The notes under the pieces were generated by a model. It worked only from the letters and a program-made list of their open reading frames with translations, had not been told where the DNA came from and did not search any database. A DNA stretch of 50,389 bases, taken from a virus. Taxonomy: Duplodnaviria > Caudoviricetes. Where the stretch lies: the IMG/VR virus record IMGVR_UViG_3300023099_000003, positions 1 through 50,389 of that record; one strand, written 5' to 3'. The translations under genes were made by a program, and so were the position numbers. Shown one piece after another: positions 2,779-10,772 of this stretch (the first letter of the stretch is position 1; each line of letters opens with the position of its first letter).

Positions 2779-2986
2779 AATGCCGACACCTGAAGAAATC
2801 CGAAGCCGCGCGTTTGAAGCGCGCATTTCGATCAATCGCCTTCTGGCCGATGCCAATGTGGCCGCCCAAACTATCTGGCGATGGGAGAGGAAAGTCAAAA
2901 CCCCTCGTCAATCCACCATAGACAAGGTGATGGCCGCGCTGGTGGCCGCCGAAGCCAAGGAGTCAGAAAGATGCACTACGCGATAG
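2779..2986 (+). CDS. Cro-like HTH DNA-binding protein
   Basis: MPTPEEIR...ISINRLLADANVAAQTIWRWERKVKTPRQSTI; GAGGAG RBS; divergent from the leftward operon. Confidence 0.7.
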
Positions 2987-3090
2987 GAGTTATTGGCTTT
3001 TGTATCTTTTGCTGCCTGGTGCTGGGATGGATCGCCTATCTAGCGCCCGAAGGCTATGAGGATGACGATGGATGGCATCCTGACGAGTAA
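2971..3090 (+). CDS. Small membrane protein
   Basis: MHYAIGVIGFCIFCCLVLGWIAYLAPEGYEDDDGWH; one hydrophobic helix. Confidence 0.5.
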   Translation: MHYAIGVIGFCIFCCLVLGWIAYLAPEGYEDDDGWHPDE

Positions 3091-3113
3091 CCCCTAACTG
3101 ATGGAACTATAAC

Positions 3114-3761
3114 ATGGCTTCTCAGCCCTCATACTCTCGCCACCGTCGCATGGTGGCGGGCCAACAACCTGTCAGTAGTGACATATCCAATGATACCCCG
3201 CCAATCTATGCGCGCCGTCTAGCGGGGTATATTCGCGACCCAAGCACTATCCGTGTTCGGGTTCTGGAAAGATATGGGCATTGCCCGCCGCGTGAAGTGA
3301 TTGTGCGAATGCTGGACGATCAGGCGCGGGCCACTGGCAAGCCTTGGAATTTCCTGCAGAAGCGGGAACATGATCACTTGTTTTCCGGCGTCCATCGCAA
3401 GTTGCCGCCGACTGTGGTTGTGCCTGACCCAGACCCGGAACTAACTCCAATGGGGCGCGCCCATCGGACGGCCAAGGATATGATTGCCGAAGCTGCCGGC
3501 GCGTTTGGGTTGACCTATGCTGATATTGTCGCACCTGGCGGCAAGGCGCGGATCAAGCGCGTTCGGTTCATGCTGGCCCAGCTGATGGTGGATCGTGGCA
3601 ACAGTCGCTCGCAAGTGGCCCACTGGCTTGGCAGAACATGCCATTCGACTGTCTGCCATGCCATGAAGGTGTTCCCGCGCATGTTGCAGGATCACCCCGA
3701 CATAGCCCGCGCCTACGCGCACTTCCGTAAAGAATGGGGGATTGATGATGCTGCAGGATAA
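3114..3761 (+). CDS. Protein with a DnaA C-terminal-like HTH domain
   Basis: C-terminal ...SRSQVAHWLGRTCHSTVCHAMK resembles the DnaA domain IV S-x-x-x-I-G-x-x-F-x-R-D-H-T-T-V pattern. Confidence 0.7.
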   Translation: MASQPSYSRHRRMVAGQQPVSSDISNDTPPIYARRLAGYIRDPSTIRVRVLERYGHCPPREVIVRMLDDQARATGKPWNFLQKREHDHLFSGVHRKLPPTVVVPDPDPELTPMGRAHRTAKDMIAEAAGAFGLTYADIVAPGGKARIKRVRFMLAQLMVDRGNSRSQVAHWLGRTCHSTVCHAMKVFPRMLQDHPDIARAYAHFRKEWGIDDAAG

Positions 3762-3948
3762 CCCATTTGCCAAAGGCCTGACCAATAGGGAATTGAGAAT
3801 AGTTAAAGCCTATGGGAAGGGGCGCGCCGCTCAGGAAGTCCATGCCCTTCGCAGCGAAAATCCGCACCTGCCGTCAAACGAAGAATTTTATTGGGCATGG
3901 GACGCGGGCTGGTGCTGGGACGAGATTGCCTATACCGCCAGTGTCTAG
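3742..3948 (+). CDS. Hypothetical protein
   Basis: 68-aa ORF overlapping the end of the previous gene. Confidence 0.5.
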   Translation: MMMLQDNPFAKGLTNRELRIVKAYGKGRAAQEVHALRSENPHLPSNEEFYWAWDAGWCWDEIAYTASV

Positions 3949-6197: not shown

Positions 6198-6845
6198 TTA
6201 AATCAAGTAGATAATTTTATCGGATTTAGCCATGTTGTCCTCGGCCCAAAGAGGGCGAAGATTGGTAAAATGCAGAAGTGGGATTAATTCCTCTAATGAT
6301 TTTGCTGAGGCAAGTGGACGGATATGGTCAACATGCCATTCAGTTCTGTTGTCCCAGGCCATTCTCGGAAGGAATTGCCTTTCTATATGCTCATGAAGCT
6401 CCTTCCATGAGCAGCCAAGATACTCGGTTGACCTTTGAGATTTAAGAACCCCTGCGGACTTAAGGCCTTTGTTTATCCTAACCAAGATGTTGTGTCTGAG
6501 GCGGAACAGTGAATTTTCTGCCCTGCGCTTTTTATAATACGCGTTTTTTGCAGGCTTATTATCTTGGTAATGCTTATTGCTTCTTTTTATAATTCTCTGT
6601 CGGTTCGCTTTATAATACTTCTTTTGATTATATTTAATATTTTCTTTGTTTTGCTCTCGATATATCGCTGACCTAACAGAGCATGCCTCTTTATTTGCAG
6701 TATAATATAAGCTGCTATACTCCGCGCGGCATTTTTTGCAGGTATTCCTAAGTCCATCTTTGGATGATGATCGCTCGCCAAATTCAGAGCGCAACTTCGC
6801 AAGCCCGCATTTGTTGCAAGTTTTCGTATCAACGAAATCTGTCAC
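6198..6845 (-). CDS. Free-standing HNH (homing-type) endonuclease
   Basis: N-terminal CxxC...CxxC, WHVDHIRPLAS...NLRPLWAEDN; visibly AT-rich compared with the flanks. Confidence 0.88.
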   Translation of the reverse strand: MTDFVDTKTCNKCGLAKLRSEFGERSSSKDGLRNTCKKCRAEYSSLYYTANKEACSVRSAIYREQNKENIKYNQKKYYKANRQRIIKRSNKHYQDNKPAKNAYYKKRRAENSLFRLRHNILVRINKGLKSAGVLKSQRSTEYLGCSWKELHEHIERQFLPRMAWDNRTEWHVDHIRPLASAKSLEELIPLLHFTNLRPLWAEDNMAKSDKIIYLI

Positions 6846-6942
6846 AAAAACCTCCGCTAGAAGATCGCTAGAAAATACGTGCGGCAGGATCGCTAGCGGA
6901 CGATCGGTTCAGGAGCTACCCTAGCCGCACTTATGGACATTA

Positions 6943-7038
6943 CTAACTTAAGGCGGACCCCGCAAGCTCCGACTGGCGCAGGAATGACAGAGCCTTTTCG
7001 GTGGCGTGGGTCTGATATGGCCGGAGTTGGAACGTCAC
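6943..7038 (-). pseudogene. Vestigial 5' end of an SF2 helicase (31 aa)
   Basis: MTFQLRPYQTHATEKALSFLRQS aligns without gaps to ELRDYQQNAVDAAKDWLKAS of the helicase; GTGA-coupled to the MTase stop. Confidence 0.7.
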
Positions 7039-8942
7039 AGCGAAAACAACCCATCCTCAGGAAGGTCGCCTGCCTTTTTGGTGGCGATGATCTTGCGCTT
7101 CATGGCGTTGCTGCGCGGCGCAAGTTTCATGCGCTCGCGAATGTCGTCTGCATATTCCACTTCGCGCTCAATCAGGATACAACGGAATCCCTCGCGCCAT
7201 GCCGCTTCGCCAGTGCTGCCACTGCCTGCGAATGGGTCCAACACGATGCCCCCCGGCGGCGTTATGAGGCGGCAAAGGTATTGCATCAGGTCCACCGGCT
7301 TGACGGTAGGATGCTTGGAGCCGATGCGGTCCAGGCTGTCGGCTTTGGCCGAGTAGAAGAAACGGGCGGCGGTGCCGCCGTTGTCGTCAACACCACGGAT
7401 TGTGTCCGTGCCTTCTTTTATGTTGCCGCCAATGTCTGCAAGGCCGCCATGCCTTCCGCTGTGCTGCTTCCCGCGATTACCAGCCTTGCTTGGCCCCGTA
7501 TCAGGAAACCCCACCACAACTTCATCGCTACCATCGTGGATTACGTTTGCGGGGAACCTTCCAATAGCGGTCGTTGGCCCGGCGTCCTCACGCCACCCCC
7601 CGCCCATCGCCACTCGCTCATTAATAGAGCCGGGAGGATTGATGCGAACCTCATCCCCAACTCGACACCCATCCACATTAATCGCACCCGTCCCATGCTC
7701 CAGAACATTGCCCGCCACAGTCCCTTTGAATGGCTTGCGCGCGAGCACCCATGGCTCTACGGCGGGTTTTAGAGCCGTTCCGTAACCCTCTGGCACCACC
7801 GGTTTGCTACACCTATTACAAACCGGCCAGCCTCCCCACGCTTGTGGTCCGCGTTTGTCGGCCACAACTCCAAGTTGTCCGGGTGATTGTTTGCCGGATT
7901 GTGGTCCTTGTGATGAACCACCTCTATCCGCGTCAGCAGGAATCCGCACACCCTCGCCATCACCAAACGGTGCTCCATGATGTATCCGTCCTTCCGGGAC
8001 ATCGGGATCGCCCAATCCGGCGCTCTCACATGCCGAACGCCCGTATAATTTCCTTGTGCCCGCTTGAGCGTCACCCCGCCCTTCCATGCTGGATTTTTTT
8101 CCATCCGCATGTCGGGTTTCTTTTTGCGAGATGCTGGCCCCTTGTGACCGTGCCTCGCCCACTCCGCTCCCCGTACAACTCCGTTGCATTGCTTCGAGCA
8201 CATCGGCTGCTTGCCCCGTGCCATGTGCCTCGCATTCCGCCAGAACGTTACTCCGCACACTGTGCATTGAGCCGACGCCATCCCCGGAAGTTGCGAAGGG
8301 TGCTTCTTGACGCCCGCCTTCTTTGCGGAAATCAGTTTGCCCGCACACGCCCGACTGCACGTCGTGTTGCGCGTCGCCTGATAGCGCGTCGTTGGCGTCC
8401 AGTCCGAGTCGCAAATCGCGCAGGTTTTTGTCTGAAACATAGTGACCTGATACAATGGTTTTATGGCATAGACAAGCGAGGCCGCTATCTTTTAACTTCT
8501 TGACGATGTTGTGGGATTTCGGGAATCCGCTCGCATACACCCACATGATGCAGTCTCTAATCTCAAACCCAGCATCCTCAATCGCCACAGCCAGCCGGTG
8601 ATAAGTCCGCGTCCCTGATGCGGCAATCACATGGCCCCCCGGCTTCAGCACACGCATGACTTCGGCCCAGAACGTTACCGCAAACGCTGTTTCGCCAGTG
8701 TCCCATTGCTTGCCCATAAAGCCGGCTGAGGCGCGGGAATAAACATCGCCGTCCTTTGTCGGTGCCGCGCCTTCCGCGCCAAACCGTTTGACGATAGAGA
8801 CAAGCGCATAAGGCGGATCGGTCACAACGGAATCCACACTGGCATCAGGCAGGCCCTTCAGCACGTCGCGGCTATCGCCGTTGAACAGCATGACTTTGCC
8901 ATCCAAATGCAGTTCGCCGCCAAAGTCAGAAAAATCAGTCAT
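7035..8942 (-). CDS. N4/N6 (beta-class) DNA methyltransferase with a ~235-aa insert
   Basis: DPPY, GFPKS, GTALKPAVEP, HPTVKPVDLM, VLDPFAGSGST motifs; GATGGAGA RBS. Confidence 0.92.
   Translation of the reverse strand: MTDFSDFGGELHLDGKVMLFNGDSRDVLKGLPDASVDSVVTDPPYALVSIVKRFGAEGAAPTKDGDVYSRASAGFMGKQWDTGETAFAVTFWAEVMRVLKPGGHVIAASGTRTYHRLAVAIEDAGFEIRDCIMWVYASGFPKSHNIVKKLKDSGLACLCHKTIVSGHYVSDKNLRDLRLGLDANDALSGDAQHDVQSGVCGQTDFRKEGGRQEAPFATSGDGVGSMHSVRSNVLAECEAHGTGQAADVLEAMQRSCTGSGVGEARSQGASISQKETRHADGKKSSMEGRGDAQAGTRKLYGRSACESAGLGDPDVPEGRIHHGAPFGDGEGVRIPADADRGGSSQGPQSGKQSPGQLGVVADKRGPQAWGGWPVCNRCSKPVVPEGYGTALKPAVEPWVLARKPFKGTVAGNVLEHGTGAINVDGCRVGDEVRINPPGSINERVAMGGGWREDAGPTTAIGRFPANVIHDGSDEVVVGFPDTGPSKAGNRGKQHSGRHGGLADIGGNIKEGTDTIRGVDDNGGTAARFFYSAKADSLDRIGSKHPTVKPVDLMQYLCRLITPPGGIVLDPFAGSGSTGEAAWREGFRCILIEREVEYADDIRERMKLAPRSNAMKRKIIATKKAGDLPEDGLFSL
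7769..8440 (-). CDS. HNH endonuclease nested in the +1 frame inside the MTase gene
   Basis: Two CxxC...CSxxC Zn fingers, NPAWKGG, YIMEHRLVM, EVVHHKDHNPANNHPDNLEL; ATG at 8440 (ORF open from 8455). Confidence 0.88.
   Translation of the reverse strand: MFQTKTCAICDSDWTPTTRYQATRNTTCSRACAGKLISAKKAGVKKHPSQLPGMASAQCTVCGVTFWRNARHMARGKQPMCSKQCNGVVRGAEWARHGHKGPASRKKKPDMRMEKNPAWKGGVTLKRAQGNYTGVRHVRAPDWAIPMSRKDGYIMEHRLVMARVCGFLLTRIEVVHHKDHNPANNHPDNLELWPTNADHKRGEAGRFVIGVANRWCQRVTERL
8441..8475 (-). promoter_or_regulatory. Candidate internal promoter for the nested HNH (leaderless geometry)
   Basis: TTGTCT-N17-TATCAG-N6-ATG on the minus strand. Confidence 0.5.
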
Positions 8943-8967
8943 AATCAGGGAGTCTCCATCTCACCGC

Positions 8968-9873
8968 TCACCGGCTTATTGCATTTGGGGGTGGCGGGGT
9001 CAAGGATTGGAGGATTGCTCGTCCAATAAGTTCGGGGATTTGGGGGATGACGGCGTTTCCACAGCATCCAACTCTGTCCACCCAATCGGGAATCCCATCA
9101 CGGCTTCCGCGAAAGAGGGGTGGAGGTATATCGGATCTTCCTCGCAAATCCTCAGCCCTTCGGACATTTTGGCACCACGAAAATGCGGAGATCCCCGAAA
9201 CCTTTTCTTCGATGACCCTTTTGGCTCCTGCTTTCCCGGTGTAGGCAGAAACAACCGCTTGACCGCTGCGGGGAATCCATTCCGCTCGTTGCTTATGTCG
9301 AAATTTCCCCTCTTCTGGCTGTCGTTCTTGCGCGGGGTAGGCAACAATCCATACACGCTCGCGACGATGGGGAGCGCCCATGGTTCCTGCCGGAATGTTT
9401 TCCCATTCCGCATCATACCCGCATTCGGCCAGGTCCCCAAGAACTCGGCCAAACCATCCCCCTGGCCGCTCAGCTGGTCCAGAAAGGAGATTTGCGACGT
9501 TCTCCACGATGATGAACTGTGGTCGTAGCTCGCCAGTAAGTCGGACGATTTCAGACCAAAGTCCGCTACGGGTTCCGCTTCCAAGGCCAGCCTGTTTTCC
9601 AGCTGTGCTAATGTCCTGGCACGGGAATCCCCCGGTGATGACATCGACCTGTCCAACGTCATCCCGAACAAGTTGTCTGCCTGTGAGGGTTCTGACGTCT
9701 CGATAGCAGGGCACGTCTGGCCAGTGTTTGGCGAGGACTTTACGGGGGAACTCTTCGATTTCACAGAAGGCGGCAGTTTCGAAGCCTGTGTATTCACCAT
9801 GTCCAGTCGCCCTTTCAAGGCCAAGGGAAAATCCTCCAATACCACTAAAAAGGTCCAATACACGGAGCTTCAC
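8968..9873 (-). CDS. C5 cytosine DNA methyltransferase, large (alpha) polypeptide
   Basis: LDLFSGIGG (I), GGFPCQDIS (IV), VENV (VI), PHRRERVW (VIII), GNAVIP (X); GTG start coupled to the YqaJ stop. Confidence 0.92.
   Translation of the reverse strand: MKLRVLDLFSGIGGFSLGLERATGHGEYTGFETAAFCEIEEFPRKVLAKHWPDVPCYRDVRTLTGRQLVRDDVGQVDVITGGFPCQDISTAGKQAGLGSGTRSGLWSEIVRLTGELRPQFIIVENVANLLSGPAERPGGWFGRVLGDLAECGYDAEWENIPAGTMGAPHRRERVWIVAYPAQERQPEEGKFRHKQRAEWIPRSGQAVVSAYTGKAGAKRVIEEKVSGISAFSWCQNVRRAEDLRGRSDIPPPLFRGSRDGIPDWVDRVGCCGNAVIPQIPELIGRAILQSLTPPPPNAISR
9000..9863 (-). CDS. Out-of-frame C5 MTase beta polypeptide (TRD-like region + motif IX); true start uncertain
   Basis: LPTP x2 and YLHPSFAEAVMGFPIGWT (motif IX-like), which the alpha frame lacks. 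Confidence 0.75.
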   Translation of the reverse strand: MYWTFLVVLEDFPLALKGRLDMVNTQASKLPPSVKSKSSPVKSSPNTGQTCPAIETSEPSQADNLFGMTLDRSMSSPGDSRARTLAQLENRLALEAEPVADFGLKSSDLLASYDHSSSSWRTSQISFLDQLSGQGDGLAEFLGTWPNAGMMRNGKTFRQEPWALPIVASVYGLLPTPRKNDSQKRGNFDISNERNGFPAAVKRLFLPTPGKQEPKGSSKKRFRGSPHFRGAKMSEGLRICEEDPIYLHPSFAEAVMGFPIGWTELDAVETPSSPKSPNLLDEQSSNP

Positions 9874-10772
9874 CGCAACCCCCAACTCTCGGACGGTTTG
9901 CCCCTGTAGGGTTCCAGATCCACCTTAGGCGCATGATCAGCCACAACCTTGGCATAGGCCACGCTGCCCTGTCTTTGGGTAAGCGTTAATTTACGCCCAC
10001 CAAACTCCGCGTTACGCTCACCCGCCATCTTCACCATATCAGACAGAAGGTCGGCCTTGCGTTCCTTGATCCGCTCTTCCTGCTCCTTAAGGTCATCCCA
10101 CTCCTTGACCATCCGCGCGGCGGCGGGGGTATCGATTGCTATCCGCTTGGGGGCAAGGTAGTCCTCTGGGTCGGCTAGGGCGTCTTGGTATTCAGCCCAA
10201 AACTGCCTCAATTTAGGCAAGTTTTCATTCAGCCATTCATGGTCAATCGGCACCCGGTCGCAGGTCGTTTCCTTGGCAGACCACTGGTAAAACCATGCGT
10301 GTTCGACGCCAGCACACAGCATCTCGATCTGAAGCTGCGCATAGTATTGCGGCTGATCTTCGAGCTTCTTGATTGGCGGCTCTTTACCAGCCTTATCGCC
10401 ATATCGCTTGCGGCGCGAGTATGGGGCCTTGATTTCGCACACGCCGCCATCGCTGGTAAAGCCATCAGGCGATGCCCCCAGCCATGTATCATAGGGCAGG
10501 AATGGGGCTGGATTGACCGTCAGGCCGGTTTCCATCTGGAATTCGATTGTCGCCCCATCCTCGTTATTGCGGCCATATTCGATGGCGATATTATCTTCCA
10601 TCTCGCTTTCCGCGCCCAAGGCATCACGCACCATGCGGCGCAACACATCCGCACGTTTCTTGTTTGGGTCCAGGTTCAGGATTGCGCCGGCCACTGAGCC
10701 GGTCACGCGGCCAATCCGGGCTTTATACCATTCGGGGGAGCGTTGTTCAGGGTCAGACATCTGCTTCTCCAT
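9870..10772 (-). CDS. YqaJ/lambda-exonuclease family protein
   Basis: QRSPEWYKARIGRVTGS, LGASPDG, EIKAP, YYAQLQ. Confidence 0.9.
   Translation of the reverse strand: MEKQMSDPEQRSPEWYKARIGRVTGSVAGAILNLDPNKKRADVLRRMVRDALGAESEMEDNIAIEYGRNNEDGATIEFQMETGLTVNPAPFLPYDTWLGASPDGFTSDGGVCEIKAPYSRRKRYGDKAGKEPPIKKLEDQPQYYAQLQIEMLCAGVEHAWFYQWSAKETTCDRVPIDHEWLNENLPKLRQFWAEYQDALADPEDYLAPKRIAIDTPAAARMVKEWDDLKEQEERIKERKADLLSDMVKMAGERNAEFGGRKLTLTQRQGSVAYAKVVADHAPKVDLEPYRGKPSESWGLR

What the first reader, a model, noticed from the sequence alone, without database searches (positions are those of the whole stretch)
7035..8942. Homing-type HNH endonuclease overprinted inside an uninterrupted DNA methyltransferase gene
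Seen: the 635-aa MTase has all its catalytic motifs, but between GFPKSHN and GYGTALKPA it carries about 235 aa of non-motif sequence. The same bases in the +1 frame on the same strand encode a complete HNH endonuclease (two Zn fingers, NPAWKGG, EHRLVM, HHKDHN..NN..DNL), whose stop falls inside the GTALK codons. The MTase frame has no stop over roughly 230 codons, which suggests selection on both frames. Established: homing endonucleases normally avoid disrupting their host gene through introns, inteins or intergenic positions. Inference: this is another strategy, a non-splicing dual-coding element whose alternative frame is tolerated as a loop in a variable region of the host protein. It could alternatively act as a nested nuclease-methylase pair.
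Basis: partly seen in the sequence, partly recalled or inferred. Interest (0 to 1): 0.92.

Follow-up and report, generated by a model that had tools for sequence, protein, structure and literature searches.

The report
Hidden nuclease gene inside methylase gene
A phage DNA-methylase gene is read straight through a selfish nuclease gene that sits inside it in another reading frame, an arrangement first described in 2025 for mycobacterial phages and shown here to be widespread and kept by selection.

Summary
On the minus strand a 635-aa beta-class N6/N4 DNA methyltransferase ORF (7035-8942) runs without a stop through a complete HNH_3 endonuclease ORF (7769-8440/8455) that lies in its +1 frame, between the GFPKSHN and GYGTALKPA motifs.

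The open host frame is not chance. Window genes carry about one stop per 20 codons in that relative frame. Across 28 distinct related elements (GC 0.38-0.67) there are 0 host-frame stops, against about 210 expected from synonymous permutation. Five free-standing relatives carry 8-39 each.

No intron or intein is detectable in the window. Some relatives of the same HNH sit out of frame inside inteins of the same methylase family, which must be translated through.

The arrangement is already in print for actinobacteriophages ("ShiLan domain / hidden HNH", Genes 2025). This window is a new member with a different HNH family in a non-actinophage.

Leads I did not find in the papers I searched:
- four host-frame cysteines (CxC...CxxC) flank the loop and may form a zinc clasp;
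- several relatives have an internal Shine-Dalgarno sequence before the HNH start;
- one relative carries the methylase as two separate ORFs around a different HNH.

Splicing, protein products and homing remain untested.

The parts
7035..8942 (-). Uninterrupted ORF of a beta-class N6-adenine/N4-cytosine DNA methyltransferase, 635 aa. It is the host gene of the element.
   Evidence: ORF, 0 stops. Pfam N6_N4_Mtase 7.3e-27; phrog_67 8.3e-66; the AF2 model matches CcrM 6pbd at 4.8e-8, plus M.BceJIV, M.RsrI and M.PvuII, with alignments spanning about 600 columns, so both halves form one MTase fold.
8508..8942 (-). MTase N-terminal half, aa 1-145. It includes motif IV DPPY (8808-8819) and ends with GFPKSHN (8508-8528).
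   Evidence: motif positions; pLDDT mostly 83-98 for aa 11-40 and 81-130; the block of aa 41-80 scores 56-70; invariant columns across 44 MTases.
7788..8507 (-). Host-frame loop, aa 146-385. This 240-aa low-complexity read-through replaces the native 12-155-aa linker. About the first 8 residues (IVKKLKD) still resemble the native linker start.
   Evidence: insert-less linkers of relatives; pLDDT below 50 for aa 163-370; host-frame identity to relatives is only 17-45%.
7769..8440 (-). HNH_3-type endonuclease gene in frame +1 of the MTase, 223 aa from ATG 8440 (the mechanical ORF starts at TTG 8455, 228 aa). It has two N-terminal CxxC...C...C zinc-finger modules and an HNH core. The stop at 7769-7771 lies over the Leu391/Lys392 codons of GTALK.
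   Evidence: HNH_3 7.1e-6, above cut-off. PHROG HNH families; 28-sequence alignment with invariant N116 P117 W119 G121 G122 ... H157 R158 ... N185 N189 ... H199. AF2 mean pLDDT 80.9.
8445..8448 (-). Shine-Dalgarno-like AGGT, 4 nt upstream of ATG 8440. It is the proposed site of internal translation initiation for the HNH on the MTase mRNA.
   Evidence: 18 nt upstream of the ATG; relatives show clearer SD-like runs before their starts, for example GGAGG in L134 and GGGGAAGAAG in L083; no promoter-like site on the minus strand inside the gene. The function is inferred.
8466..8474 (-). Host-frame Cys157-Leu-Cys159 (CxC). These codons lie upstream of both candidate HNH start codons, so they are coded for the MTase frame only. 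They are the proposed N-side half of a zinc clasp.
   Evidence: the aa 151-160 block has pLDDT 78, next to a loop scoring below 50; the same motif is present in relatives.
7809..7820 (-). Host-frame Cys375-Asn-Arg-Cys378 (CxxC), overlapping the non-conserved tail of the HNH. It is the proposed C-side half of a zinc clasp.
   Evidence: HNH tails diverge after HK..E; the aa 371-380 block has pLDDT 80.
7035..7787 (-). MTase C-terminal half, aa 386-635. It runs from GYGTALKPA through the TRD-like region and HPTVKP to motif I DPFAGSGST (about 7215-7240).
   Evidence: pLDDT 91-96 for aa 551-610; 598 viral relatives of this half confirmed.
6198..6845 (-). Neighbouring gene directly downstream, an endonuclease VII-like / HNH-motif protein of 215 aa. 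This is context only. An endonuclease VII gene also flanks the homologous MTase in mycobacteriophages Molly, Briton15 and Monet.
   Evidence: phrog_1035 endonuclease VII 3.8e-24; annotation of the mycobacteriophage loci.
8968..9885 (-). Neighbouring gene directly upstream, a C5 cytosine DNA methyltransferase of 305 aa. This is context only; see Noticed in passing for its own open +1 frame.
   Evidence: Pfam DNA_methylase 3.2e-40; phrog_363 6.1e-79.

Best explanation
A mobile, homing-type HNH_3 endonuclease gene occupies the naturally hypervariable linker between the GFPKS and GTALKP motifs of a phage beta-class DNA methyltransferase gene. The two genes share one strand, and the nuclease is in frame +1 of the methylase.

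The element is not removed from the RNA or the protein. Ribosomes that started at the methylase ATG read through the nuclease gene in the other frame and produce a roughly 240-aa disordered loop between the two halves of an otherwise intact methylase fold. Selection on synonymous codon choice in the nuclease gene keeps that frame free of stops.

The nuclease itself is made by internal initiation at its own start (ATG 8440 after an AGGT), presumably from the same mRNA.

By analogy with other homing endonucleases, it cuts element-free methylase alleles during co-infection. Repair then copies the whole linker cassette, which replaces the native linker.

What is shown here: the dual coding, the selection on both frames, the lack of detectable splicing signals, and the patchy distribution. 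What is inferred: translation of both products, methylase activity with the loop in place, and nuclease-driven homing.
For: 1. Anatomy.

2. Stop avoidance in the window. It is far beyond chance.

3. Nesting across viral relatives. One search returned 47 viral loci with relatives of the HNH. I examined the 32 with E <= 1e-16.
- In 29 of 32 the HNH ORF is enclosed by a longer ORF in the same relative frame with 0 stops. The remaining frame has 4-28 stops.
- All enclosing ORFs printed are DPPY...GFPKS...GTALKP...FxGSGST methylases (Pfam on 6 of them).
- The 3 non-nested relatives have 23, 39 and 8 stops in that frame.

4. Nesting in genomes. Three of the four genome-collection hits with E <= 1e-32 (L134-L136, from Pseudomonadota, Actinomycetota and Bacteroidetes MAGs) are scored as nested with 0 host-frame stops. 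The fourth (L133, Myxococcales) shows the same flanks but its frame was not resolved. Two distant free-standing hits have 19 and 18 stops.

5. Family-wide totals.
- Over 28 distinct elements there are 0 host-frame stops in 5842 open codons, against 354 in the third frame.
- Over 4779 core codons there are 0 stops against 210 expected under within-gene synonymous permutation. GC ranges from 0.38 to 0.67, so this is not a high-GC artefact.

6. The HNH is the primary coding frame: 42-72% aa identity against 17-49% in the host frame.

7. Relatives inside inteins. In 5 relatives (L005, L013, L014, L017, L136) the same HNH lies out of frame inside a segment running from CL[ST]EDTEI to TGN|SGFPKS. 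A profile of four of these (L005, L013, L014, L017) hits a solved intein (6zgq, 6.2e-6; 9hth, 4.3e-4). An intein can only work if translated through, so this HNH lineage is read through in that frame elsewhere.

8. No splicing signal. Rfam gave no hit at E <= 1 over 6800-9200. Only about 45 nt of non-HNH sequence lies 5' of the HNH start, and essentially none lies 3' of its stop.

9. Structure. AF2 gives confident MTase halves and a loop with pLDDT below 50. The model matches single-domain beta-class MTases across both halves.

10. A tolerant site. Insert-less relatives have linkers of 12 to about 155 aa at this position.

11. Mobility.
- Only 3 of the 80 nearest MTase relatives carry this HNH.
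- On a FastTree of 94 MTase C-domains (25 with the element), presence needs at least 13 changes, 6 of them forced by well-supported branches. Element-bearing rows are often sisters of element-free ones.
- L006 carries a 63%-identical HNH at a different site, before GSGFPKS.

12. A hint from other samples. In contigs of 4 runs from 4 studies, the 6 listed pieces with 0-2 differences over 151-211 nt all lie within 7974-8536. Listed pieces on the MTase flanks differ at 4-22 positions in 44-153 nt.

13. Prior literature. The same conclusions were reached for actinophage elements (PMC11855218).
Against: - No RNA or protein data exist. No RNA run holds the sequence, so splicing, bypassing or proteolytic removal are excluded only by the absence of known signals and by the logic of stop avoidance.
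- MTase activity with a 240-aa loop is untested.
- HNH activity and target are untested. The fold match to I-HmuI is not significant (E 0.36) and phmmer against PDB found nothing relevant.
- The SD before ATG 8440 is weak, at 4 nt.
- The mobility evidence has limits. The tree is FastTree only and mixes rows chosen in two different ways. The near-identical contig pieces could also come from low-coverage copies of the same phage, and 34 pieces were not shown.
- One related locus with a different HNH family (L081) has 12 host-frame stops and a split methylase. Read-through is therefore not the only viable state at this site.
Confidence: 0.82

Rival explanations
1. The insert is an intron, either a group I type with its ORF filling nearly all of it or an unknown ribozyme. 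It is spliced from the mRNA, so the host-frame reading is never used.
For: HNH ORFs are common cargo of phage group I introns (stated in PMC11855218, section 3.5). No RNA data are available to exclude splicing.
Against: - Rfam gave no hit at E <= 1.
- Only about 45 nt 5' and about 0 nt 3' lie outside the HNH ORF.
- A spliced insert would not need a stop-free host frame. Yet 28 distinct elements have 0 stops against about 210 expected, and the third frame has 354.
- Relatives of this HNH sit inside inteins, which must be translated.
- The authors of PMC11855218 likewise found no intron signals in the actinophage elements.
Confidence: 0.04
2. The loop is removed after translation, by a cryptic intein-like or proteolytic step. 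The read-through is translated but is not part of the mature methylase.
For: The same HNH lineage occurs inside true intein-like segments in 5 relatives, so a degenerate descendant is conceivable. The loop is predicted to be disordered and would be accessible to proteases.
Against: - The window protein has no Hint or intein hit in Pfam or NCBIfam, even at E <= 1.
- The insert lacks the CL[ST]EDTEI start and the TGN|S end of the intein-type relatives.
- Instead it carries the CxC...CxxC pairs, which the 5 intein-type elements lack.
Confidence: 0.05
3. The HNH and the methylase form a functional, restriction-modification-like or addiction pair. The nuclease cuts DNA that lacks the methylase's mark, and the nesting ensures co-inheritance. 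It would then not be a purely selfish homing element.
For: - The physical nesting guarantees linkage.
- Two unrelated HNH families, HNH_3 here and PF01844 in Molly and L081, have settled in the same methylase linker.
- A C5 MTase and an endonuclease VII-like gene are adjacent.
Against: - The distribution is patchy: 3 of the 80 nearest MTases carry this HNH, and at least 13 changes are needed on the tree.
- Free-standing and intein-borne relatives exist.
- The same HNH occurs at a second site (L006).
All three are hallmarks of homing elements rather than of a fixed two-gene system.
Confidence: 0.07
4. The open host frame is an accident of composition or of a very recent insertion, and the methylase is effectively a pseudogene.
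For: The local GC of about 0.6 lowers stop frequency. PMC11855218 notes that the actinophage methylase is not essential for the phage.
Against: - The window-level probabilities are 1e-5 to 2e-3.
- The state is kept in 28 distinct elements that have diverged to 42-72% HNH identity, including AT-rich ones (GC 0.38-0.45) where 8-18 stops are expected per gene.
- The MTase motifs and fold are intact.
Confidence: 0.02

Closest known systems
ShiLan domain / 'hidden' out-of-frame HNH endonuclease in actinobacteriophage DNA methylases (PMC9957025, 2023, passages read; PMC11855218, 2025, sections 1, 3, 4 and legends read; PMC12613952, listing only)
   Same: - The host gene family is the same. Molly, Briton15 and Monet MTases align with the window's at 41-42% identity and share its motifs.
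- The element sits in the same linker between GFPKS and GTALKP.
- A complete HNH ORF lies on the same strand in another frame, with no host-frame stops.
- No intron or intein is detectable.
- The distribution is patchy, and the loop is predicted to be disordered.
   Different: - The nuclease belongs to another HNH family. The window has Pfam HNH_3. Molly and L081 have PF01844. Pairwise, only the zinc-finger modules match (E 9e-4).
- The hosts are not actinophages. The closest annotated MTase is in a Caulobacter phage at 57% identity, and related elements occur in MAGs of several bacterial phyla.
- SD-like sequences precede the HNH starts here, whereas the paper proposes leaderless initiation.
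- I found no stop-avoidance statistics in the sections of the paper that I read.
Inteins with out-of-frame or antisense homing endonucleases (bioRxiv 10.1101/2025.01.02.630785, passages read)
   Same: A homing endonuclease gene lies in another frame of a sequence that must be translated through. Five relatives of the window's HNH (L005, L013, L014, L017, L136) have exactly this layout inside an intein-like segment of the methylase.
   Different: The window's element has no Hint domain. The preprint passages I read report an endonuclease VII-like enzyme in DNA polymerase, capsid, terminase and thymidylate synthase inteins. They do not report an HNH_3 in a methylase intein.
Free-standing homing endonucleases that split a host gene into two ORFs
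   Same: A nuclease gene is lodged inside a conserved host gene with no splicing element. Locus L081 shows this state in the same methylase linker: an N-half, an HNH and a C-half as three ORFs, with 12 host-frame stops.
   Different: In the window the host gene is not split. One continuous polypeptide is encoded.
Group I intron-encoded HNH endonucleases such as I-HmuI (PDB 1u3e)
   Same: It has an HNH_3-type catalytic module with N-terminal DNA-binding modules, and I-HmuI is the best structural match to the model.
   Different: That match is not significant (E 0.36). No intron RNA was detected.
Viral overprinting, meaning de novo genes in alternative frames (review PMC8227390, listing only)
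   Same: Two long same-strand ORFs share about 670 nt.
   Different: The direction is reversed. The nuclease is an old, independently occurring gene. The secondary reading is a structurally undemanding loop of the host protein, not a new functional protein.

Membership tests
Out-of-frame 'hidden HNH' insertion elements of phage DNA methylases (ShiLan-domain kind) | The insertion lies inside a DNA methylase ORF and adds no stop codon in the host frame. | tested here: met
   0 stops in 635 codons; the insert is shown against the insert-less DMCA MTase.
Out-of-frame 'hidden HNH' insertion elements of phage DNA methylases (ShiLan-domain kind) | A complete HNH endonuclease ORF lies on the same strand in an alternative frame within the insertion. 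| tested here: met
Out-of-frame 'hidden HNH' insertion elements of phage DNA methylases (ShiLan-domain kind) | No recognisable self-splicing intron or intein is present. | tested here: met
   Rfam, 0 hits at E <= 1; no Hint or intein family for the window protein.
Out-of-frame 'hidden HNH' insertion elements of phage DNA methylases (ShiLan-domain kind) | The distribution among methylase homologues is disjunct, which is the signature of homing. | tested here: met
   3 of the 80 nearest MTase loci carry it; at least 13 changes on a 94-row tree (FastTree only).
Out-of-frame 'hidden HNH' insertion elements of phage DNA methylases (ShiLan-domain kind) | The nuclease is homologous in sequence to the ShiLan-type HNH. 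| tested here: not met
   only the zinc-finger modules align (E 9e-4 over 30 aa). HNH_3 against PF01844. It is the same kind of element but a separate nuclease lineage.
HNH_3 / I-HmuI-like homing endonucleases | It matches the family profile above the curated cut-off and has conserved His/Asn catalytic positions. | tested here: met
   26.0 bits against a cut-off of 24.8. H157, N185, N189 and H199 are invariant in 28 sequences.
HNH_3 / I-HmuI-like homing endonucleases | The structure resembles a solved member. | tested here: inconclusive
   1u3e is the top hit, but with E 0.36, probability 0.84 and 86 columns.
HNH_3 / I-HmuI-like homing endonucleases | It cleaves element-free alleles site-specifically, and the element is then copied in. 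| not testable with these tools
   This needs an in vitro cleavage assay and a homing assay.
Beta-class N6-adenine/N4-cytosine DNA methyltransferases (Pfam N6_N4_Mtase) | It has motif IV DPPY before motif I FxGxG, matches the profile and has the fold. | tested here: met
   CcrM, M.RsrI, M.PvuII and M.BceJIV at E 5e-8 to 4e-4.
Group I intron | A conserved catalytic RNA core is present. | tested here: not met
Intein | Hint-domain splicing blocks lie at both ends of the insert, in the host frame. | tested here: not met
   for the window. For contrast, the relatives' profile A3 hits solved inteins.
Overprinted (de novo) gene | The nested ORF has no independent homologues outside the host gene. | tested here: not met
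   free-standing HNH_3 relatives L023, L035, L036, L137 and L138.

The most novel reading that the evidence does not exclude
The element carries its own protein-level substitute for splicing. In the methylase frame it encodes a CxC pair at its 5' edge and a CxxC pair at its 3' edge. Together these would bind one zinc ion and clasp the two ends of the roughly 230-aa out-of-frame loop, restoring the geometry of the minimal native linker, in which GFPKS and GTALKP are only 12 aa apart in some relatives.

On this reading the same HNH lineage uses three interchangeable solutions to the problem of not breaking its host: the zinc-clasped loop, residence inside an intein, and a split gene whose halves end and begin with the Cys pairs (seen with another HNH family in L081).

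Evidence:
- 16 of 21 distinct loop-type elements with both ends on the contig have both pairs. None of the 5 intein-type elements has them. No insert-less linker has more than 3 Cys.
- In the window the CxC codons lie outside the HNH coding region.
- The unrelated ShiLan-type element of Molly and Briton15 has CDC...CSWC.
- AF2 gives pLDDT 78-80 to just these two short segments, beside a loop scoring below 50.

Caveats: shared ancestry among the elements and constraints from the HNH frame on the 3' pair are not excluded, and no model coordinates were available to measure Cys-Cys distances.
Probability: 0.35. Interest if true: 0.8.

Novelty: new member of a known kind. Interest (0 to 1): 0.55.

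Why it matters
Homing endonucleases are thought to survive inside genes only by hiding in introns or inteins, or by sitting between genes. A third route was proposed only computationally, in 2025, and for a few mycobacteriophages: being translated through in another frame as a harmless loop.

This window and its relatives extend that proposal in several ways:
- The route is used by a second, unrelated HNH family.
- It occurs in phages and prophage-like regions of several bacterial phyla.
- It has been kept by selection over deep divergence.
- The relatives include natural loop, intein-borne and free-standing forms of the same nuclease, and another HNH family supplies a split-gene form at the same site. 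Together these make the questions experimentally tractable: whether the loop is tolerated, how the nuclease is translated, and whether it homes.

It also warns annotators that long same-strand nested ORFs in phage methylase genes can be real.

Tried and rejected
- Rfam scan of 6800-9200 at E <= 1: nothing.
- phmmer of the HNH against PDB sequences: only an unrelated zinc finger at E 0.11.
- Foldseek of the HNH model: I-HmuI on top but not significant.
- Intein HMMs on the intein-type relatives were below curated cut-offs: Hint_2 at 0.0072 and intein_Nterm at 0.091. The intein reading rests on the four-sequence profile hit to solved inteins and on end motifs.
- The look-up of sequencing runs: no RNA holder listed. 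Expression and splicing could not be examined.
- Read laying reported one joint, 7787->8070 skipping 282 nt, in one contig of X2. It had 26 letters on the shorter side at 85% likeness, below the tool's own reliability advice, so I ignored it.
- Complex prediction on the two Cys-bearing flanks (aa 146-180 and 350-385) with Zn: no verdict, score 0.10, controls not run. This is not evidence either way.
- Co-occurrence of the two Cys pairs among loop-type elements (16 with both, 2 N-side only, 1 C-side only, 2 with neither) is not by itself statistically convincing and ignores shared ancestry.
- Model coordinates are not exposed, so Cys-Cys distances could not be measured.
- Programmed frameshifting to fuse the MTase N-half to the HNH was considered and dropped. 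The HNH has its own start and SD-like sequences in the relatives.
- The scan for promoter-like sites found none on the minus strand inside the gene. This is a consensus scan and weak.
- Supplementary files of the papers were not consulted. The survey tables and repository of PMC11855218 may list elements outside actinophages that overlap the family described here. [quoted passage not shown]
- The claim that the Cys clasp is not in print rests on term searches inside two papers. 'zinc' and 'cysteine' had 0 hits in PMC9957025. In PMC11855218 they refer only to the HNH frame or to intein chemistry. Three library searches also bear on it.

Full report
**What is there.** The window is a complete 50,389-bp virus record with direct terminal repeats.

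On the minus strand, ORF 7035-8942 encodes a 635-aa protein.
- DPPY is at aa 42, GFPKSHN at aa 139, GYGTALKPA at aa 386 and DPFAGSGST from about aa 569.
- It matches Pfam N6_N4_Mtase at 7.3e-27 and phrog_67 'DNA methyltransferase' at 8.3e-66.

The 240 aa between the two middle motifs are low-complexity. Over the same bases, in frame +1 of the same strand, lies ORF 7769-8455.
- It is 228 aa from the first TTG, or 223 aa from ATG 8440.
- It matches Pfam HNH_3 above the curated cut-off and several PHROG HNH families.
- Its stop overlaps the Leu/Lys codons of GTALK.

**Is the open methylase frame more than chance?** Yes.

A stop in the host frame arises only when an HNH codon ending in T precedes a codon starting AA, AG or GA.
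- The HNH has 50 such junctions and none follows a T-ending codon. Of the other junctions, 31 of 177 do.
- Thirty other ORFs of the window carry 527 stops in 10,617 codons in the same relative frame, so the Poisson probability of none in 228 codons is 1.2e-5.
- Permuting the HNH's own synonymous codons gives a mean of 5.2 stops, and only 0.17% of permutations have none.
- Resampling from window codon usage gave no stop-free case in 20,000.

**Relatives.** Searching viral contigs with the HNH returned 47 loci. I examined the 32 with E <= 1e-16 and did not examine the 15 weaker ones.
- In 29 of 32 the HNH ORF is enclosed by a longer ORF in the same relative frame with no stop. The third frame has 4-28 stops.
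- The three that are not enclosed (L023, L035, L036) have 23, 39 and 8 stops in that frame and are bona fide HNH_3 proteins.
- Every enclosing ORF printed is a methylase of the same family (Pfam on six).

In the genome collection, three of the four hits with E <= 1e-32 (L134-L136) are scored as nested, in MAGs labelled Polaromonas, Solirubrobacterales and Bacteroidetes. The fourth, L133 (Myxococcales), shows the same flanks, but its frame assignment by my script failed. Two distant free-standing hits have 19 and 18 stops.

I pooled the non-identical sequences, including three more found through the methylase (L080, L083, L087). This gave 28 distinct elements.
- In all of them the HNH is at host +1.
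- They have 0 host-frame stops in 5,842 open codons, against 354 in the third frame.
- Over 4,779 core codons, synonymous permutation within each gene predicts about 210 stops. GC ranges from 0.38 to 0.67, so high GC is not the explanation.
- Between elements the HNH frame is 42-72% identical and the host frame only 17-49%.

The nuclease is therefore the primary coding frame. The host frame is constrained mainly not to stop.

**Is the insert removed?** I found no evidence that it is.
- Rfam finds nothing at E <= 1 over 6800-9200.
- Only about 45 nt lie between the end of native-like methylase sequence and the HNH start, and none lie after its stop. That leaves no room for a ribozyme core outside the ORF.
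- The window protein has no Hint or intein hit.
- A spliced insert would not need a stop-free host frame.
- In five relatives (L005, L013, L014, L017, L136) the same HNH lies out of frame inside a roughly 340-aa host-frame segment. That segment starts CL[ST]EDTEI directly after the conserved Gly and ends TGN|SGFPKS. A profile of four of them hits a solved intein (6zgq, 6.2e-6; 9hth, 4.3e-4), although curated intein HMMs stay below cut-off.

If these are inteins, the stretch over the HNH must be translated for splicing to occur. This nuclease lineage would then be adapted to being read through.

**The host protein.** With a 44-sequence alignment, AF2 gives confident N- and C-terminal halves (pLDDT above 90 over much of aa 11-135 and 551-610). 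It gives a pLDDT below 50 for aa 163-370.
- Foldseek aligns the model over about 600 columns to single-domain beta-class enzymes: CcrM 6pbd at 4.8e-8, plus M.BceJIV, M.RsrI and M.PvuII. The two halves therefore complete one fold around the loop.
- The site is naturally tolerant. Among the 80 nearest viral relatives of the C-terminal half, linkers between GFPKS and GTALKP fall into classes of 12-22, about 60-80 and about 140-155 aa.
- Element-bearing alleles lack the native 60-80-aa linker, in this family and in mycobacteriophage Molly compared with Monet. The element therefore comes as a cassette that replaces the linker.

**Mobility.**
- Only 3 of the 80 nearest methylase loci carry this HNH.
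- I built a FastTree of 94 methylase C-domains, 25 with the element and 69 without. Duplicates, truncated rows and L013, L014, L133 and L136 were left out. The two sets were chosen by different queries.
- On that tree, presence needs at least 13 changes, 6 of them forced by well-supported branches, against 22.1 for shuffled labels. Several element-bearing rows are sisters of element-free ones: L080/L063, L010/L064+L079 and L012/L053+L112.
- L006 carries a 63%-identical HNH at another site, before GSGFPKS.
- As a weak hint, in contigs of four runs from four studies the six listed pieces with 0-2 differences over 151-211 nt all fall within 7974-8536. Listed pieces on the methylase flanks differ at 4-22 positions. 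34 pieces were not shown, and low coverage of the same phage is not excluded.

**Expression of the nuclease.** ATG 8440 is preceded by AGGT at a spacing of 4 nt. Relatives show clearer Shine-Dalgarno-like runs about 12 codons before the first zinc finger, for example GGAGG in L134. No promoter-like site lies on the minus strand within the gene. Internal initiation on the methylase mRNA is the simplest reading, but it is inferred.

**Comparison with what is known.** A literature search found that this architecture is published.
- Gosselin, Arsenault and Gogarten described the 'ShiLan domain' in an actinophage methylase family in 2023 (PMC9957025, passages read).
- In 2025 they showed that it hides an out-of-frame HNH, adds no host-frame stops, shows no intron or intein signals, and probably forms a loop (PMC11855218; sections 1, 3, 4 and legends read).
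- A genome announcement annotates another case (PMC12613952, listing only).
- Molly gp60/gp61 are annotated this way in GenBank.
- Those methylases are homologous to the window's at 41-42% identity and the site is the same.
- The nuclease is different. ShiLan-type enzymes are PF01844 and the window's is HNH_3. Only the zinc-finger modules align.

The window is thus a new member of a known kind, in a non-actinophage. The closest annotated methylase is Caulobacter phage DMCA at 57% identity.

**Leads that may be new.**

*A possible zinc clasp.* In the host frame the loop is flanked by CxC and CxxC. In the window these are C157/C159, whose codons lie upstream of both possible HNH starts, and C375/C378.
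- Sixteen of 21 distinct loop-type elements with both ends on the contig have both pairs. Two have only an N-side CxxC, one has only the C-side pair, and two have none.
- None of the five intein-type elements has them.
- No insert-less linker has more than three Cys.
- Molly and Briton15, which carry the unrelated nuclease, have CDC...CSWC.
- AF2 gives pLDDT 78-80 to precisely these two short segments.

This suggests a zinc clasp pinning the base of the loop. It remains a hypothesis.

*A split form at the same site.* Locus L081 has the methylase as two ORFs around a ShiLan-type HNH, with 12 host-frame stops. The N-half ends ...CQCDD and the C-half begins ...CSCCGKP. Read-through, intein residence and gene splitting therefore all occur at or next to this site.

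**Verdict.** It was already described in 2025 for a sister system. Splicing, protein products, methylase activity and homing are untested.

Noticed in passing
window 8968-9885 (- strand), alternative ORF 9000-9863: The neighbouring C5 cytosine methyltransferase gene has a 287-aa ORF in its own +1 frame.
- It has 0 stops over codons 8-293, where synonymous permutation predicts 4.4 (P(0) = 0.0022).
- The alternative-frame product hits phrog_1008 'DNA methyltransferase' at 6.5e-17, has no Pfam family, and matches 324 predicted proteins, mostly unnamed or 'hypothetical', of about 176-324 aa among the 120 listed.
- In 20 viral relatives the +1 frame has stops only in the first 20-90 and last 30 or so codons. 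The centre is stop-free in 19 of 20. The +2 frame has 7-20 stops, and GC3 is about 0.5.
This is either a conserved overlapping gene or a family-specific bias that misleads gene callers.
   Followed up: partly
L005 2712-3743; L013 2712-3737; L014 2736-3749; L017 396-1394; L136 (host-frame segment around 801-1625): These are intein-like segments (CL[ST]EDTEI ... TGN|SGFPKS) in methylase genes. Their endonuclease region is occupied by an out-of-frame HNH_3 gene related to the window's (40-51% identity). The profile of four of them hits solved intein 6zgq at 6.2e-6. In the passages I read, the published cases of out-of-frame intein endonucleases involve other enzymes and other host proteins.
   Followed up: partly
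L081 1924-3858: A split methylase. The N-half ORF (1924-2382) ends in CQCDD. A PF01844 HNH ORF (2375-2953) overlaps both neighbours by a few bases. The C-half ORF (2920-3858) begins near CSCCGKP. There are 12 stops in the methylase frame across the HNH.
   Followed up: partly
L117 and L129, linker of the methylase: A 61-aa linker without an HNH carries KCTCQ...HICH. It may be an empty or decayed clasp-type cassette.
   Followed up: no
L053, L096-L101, L104, L119-L122, L127; also L006 downstream of GFPKS: A third class of native linkers, about 140-155 aa long, contains a conserved in-frame segment (...FTAWMR.TG.T.RQ.D..T.TNMGGHY...QPAIPT...) that looks like a small helix-turn-helix-type domain. 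It is another sign that this loop accepts cargo.
   Followed up: no
window 6198-6845 (- strand): An endonuclease VII-like gene with an HNH-type motif (phrog_1035, 3.8e-24) directly follows the methylase. In mycobacteriophages Molly, Briton15 and Monet an endonuclease VII gene directly precedes the homologous methylase.
   Followed up: no
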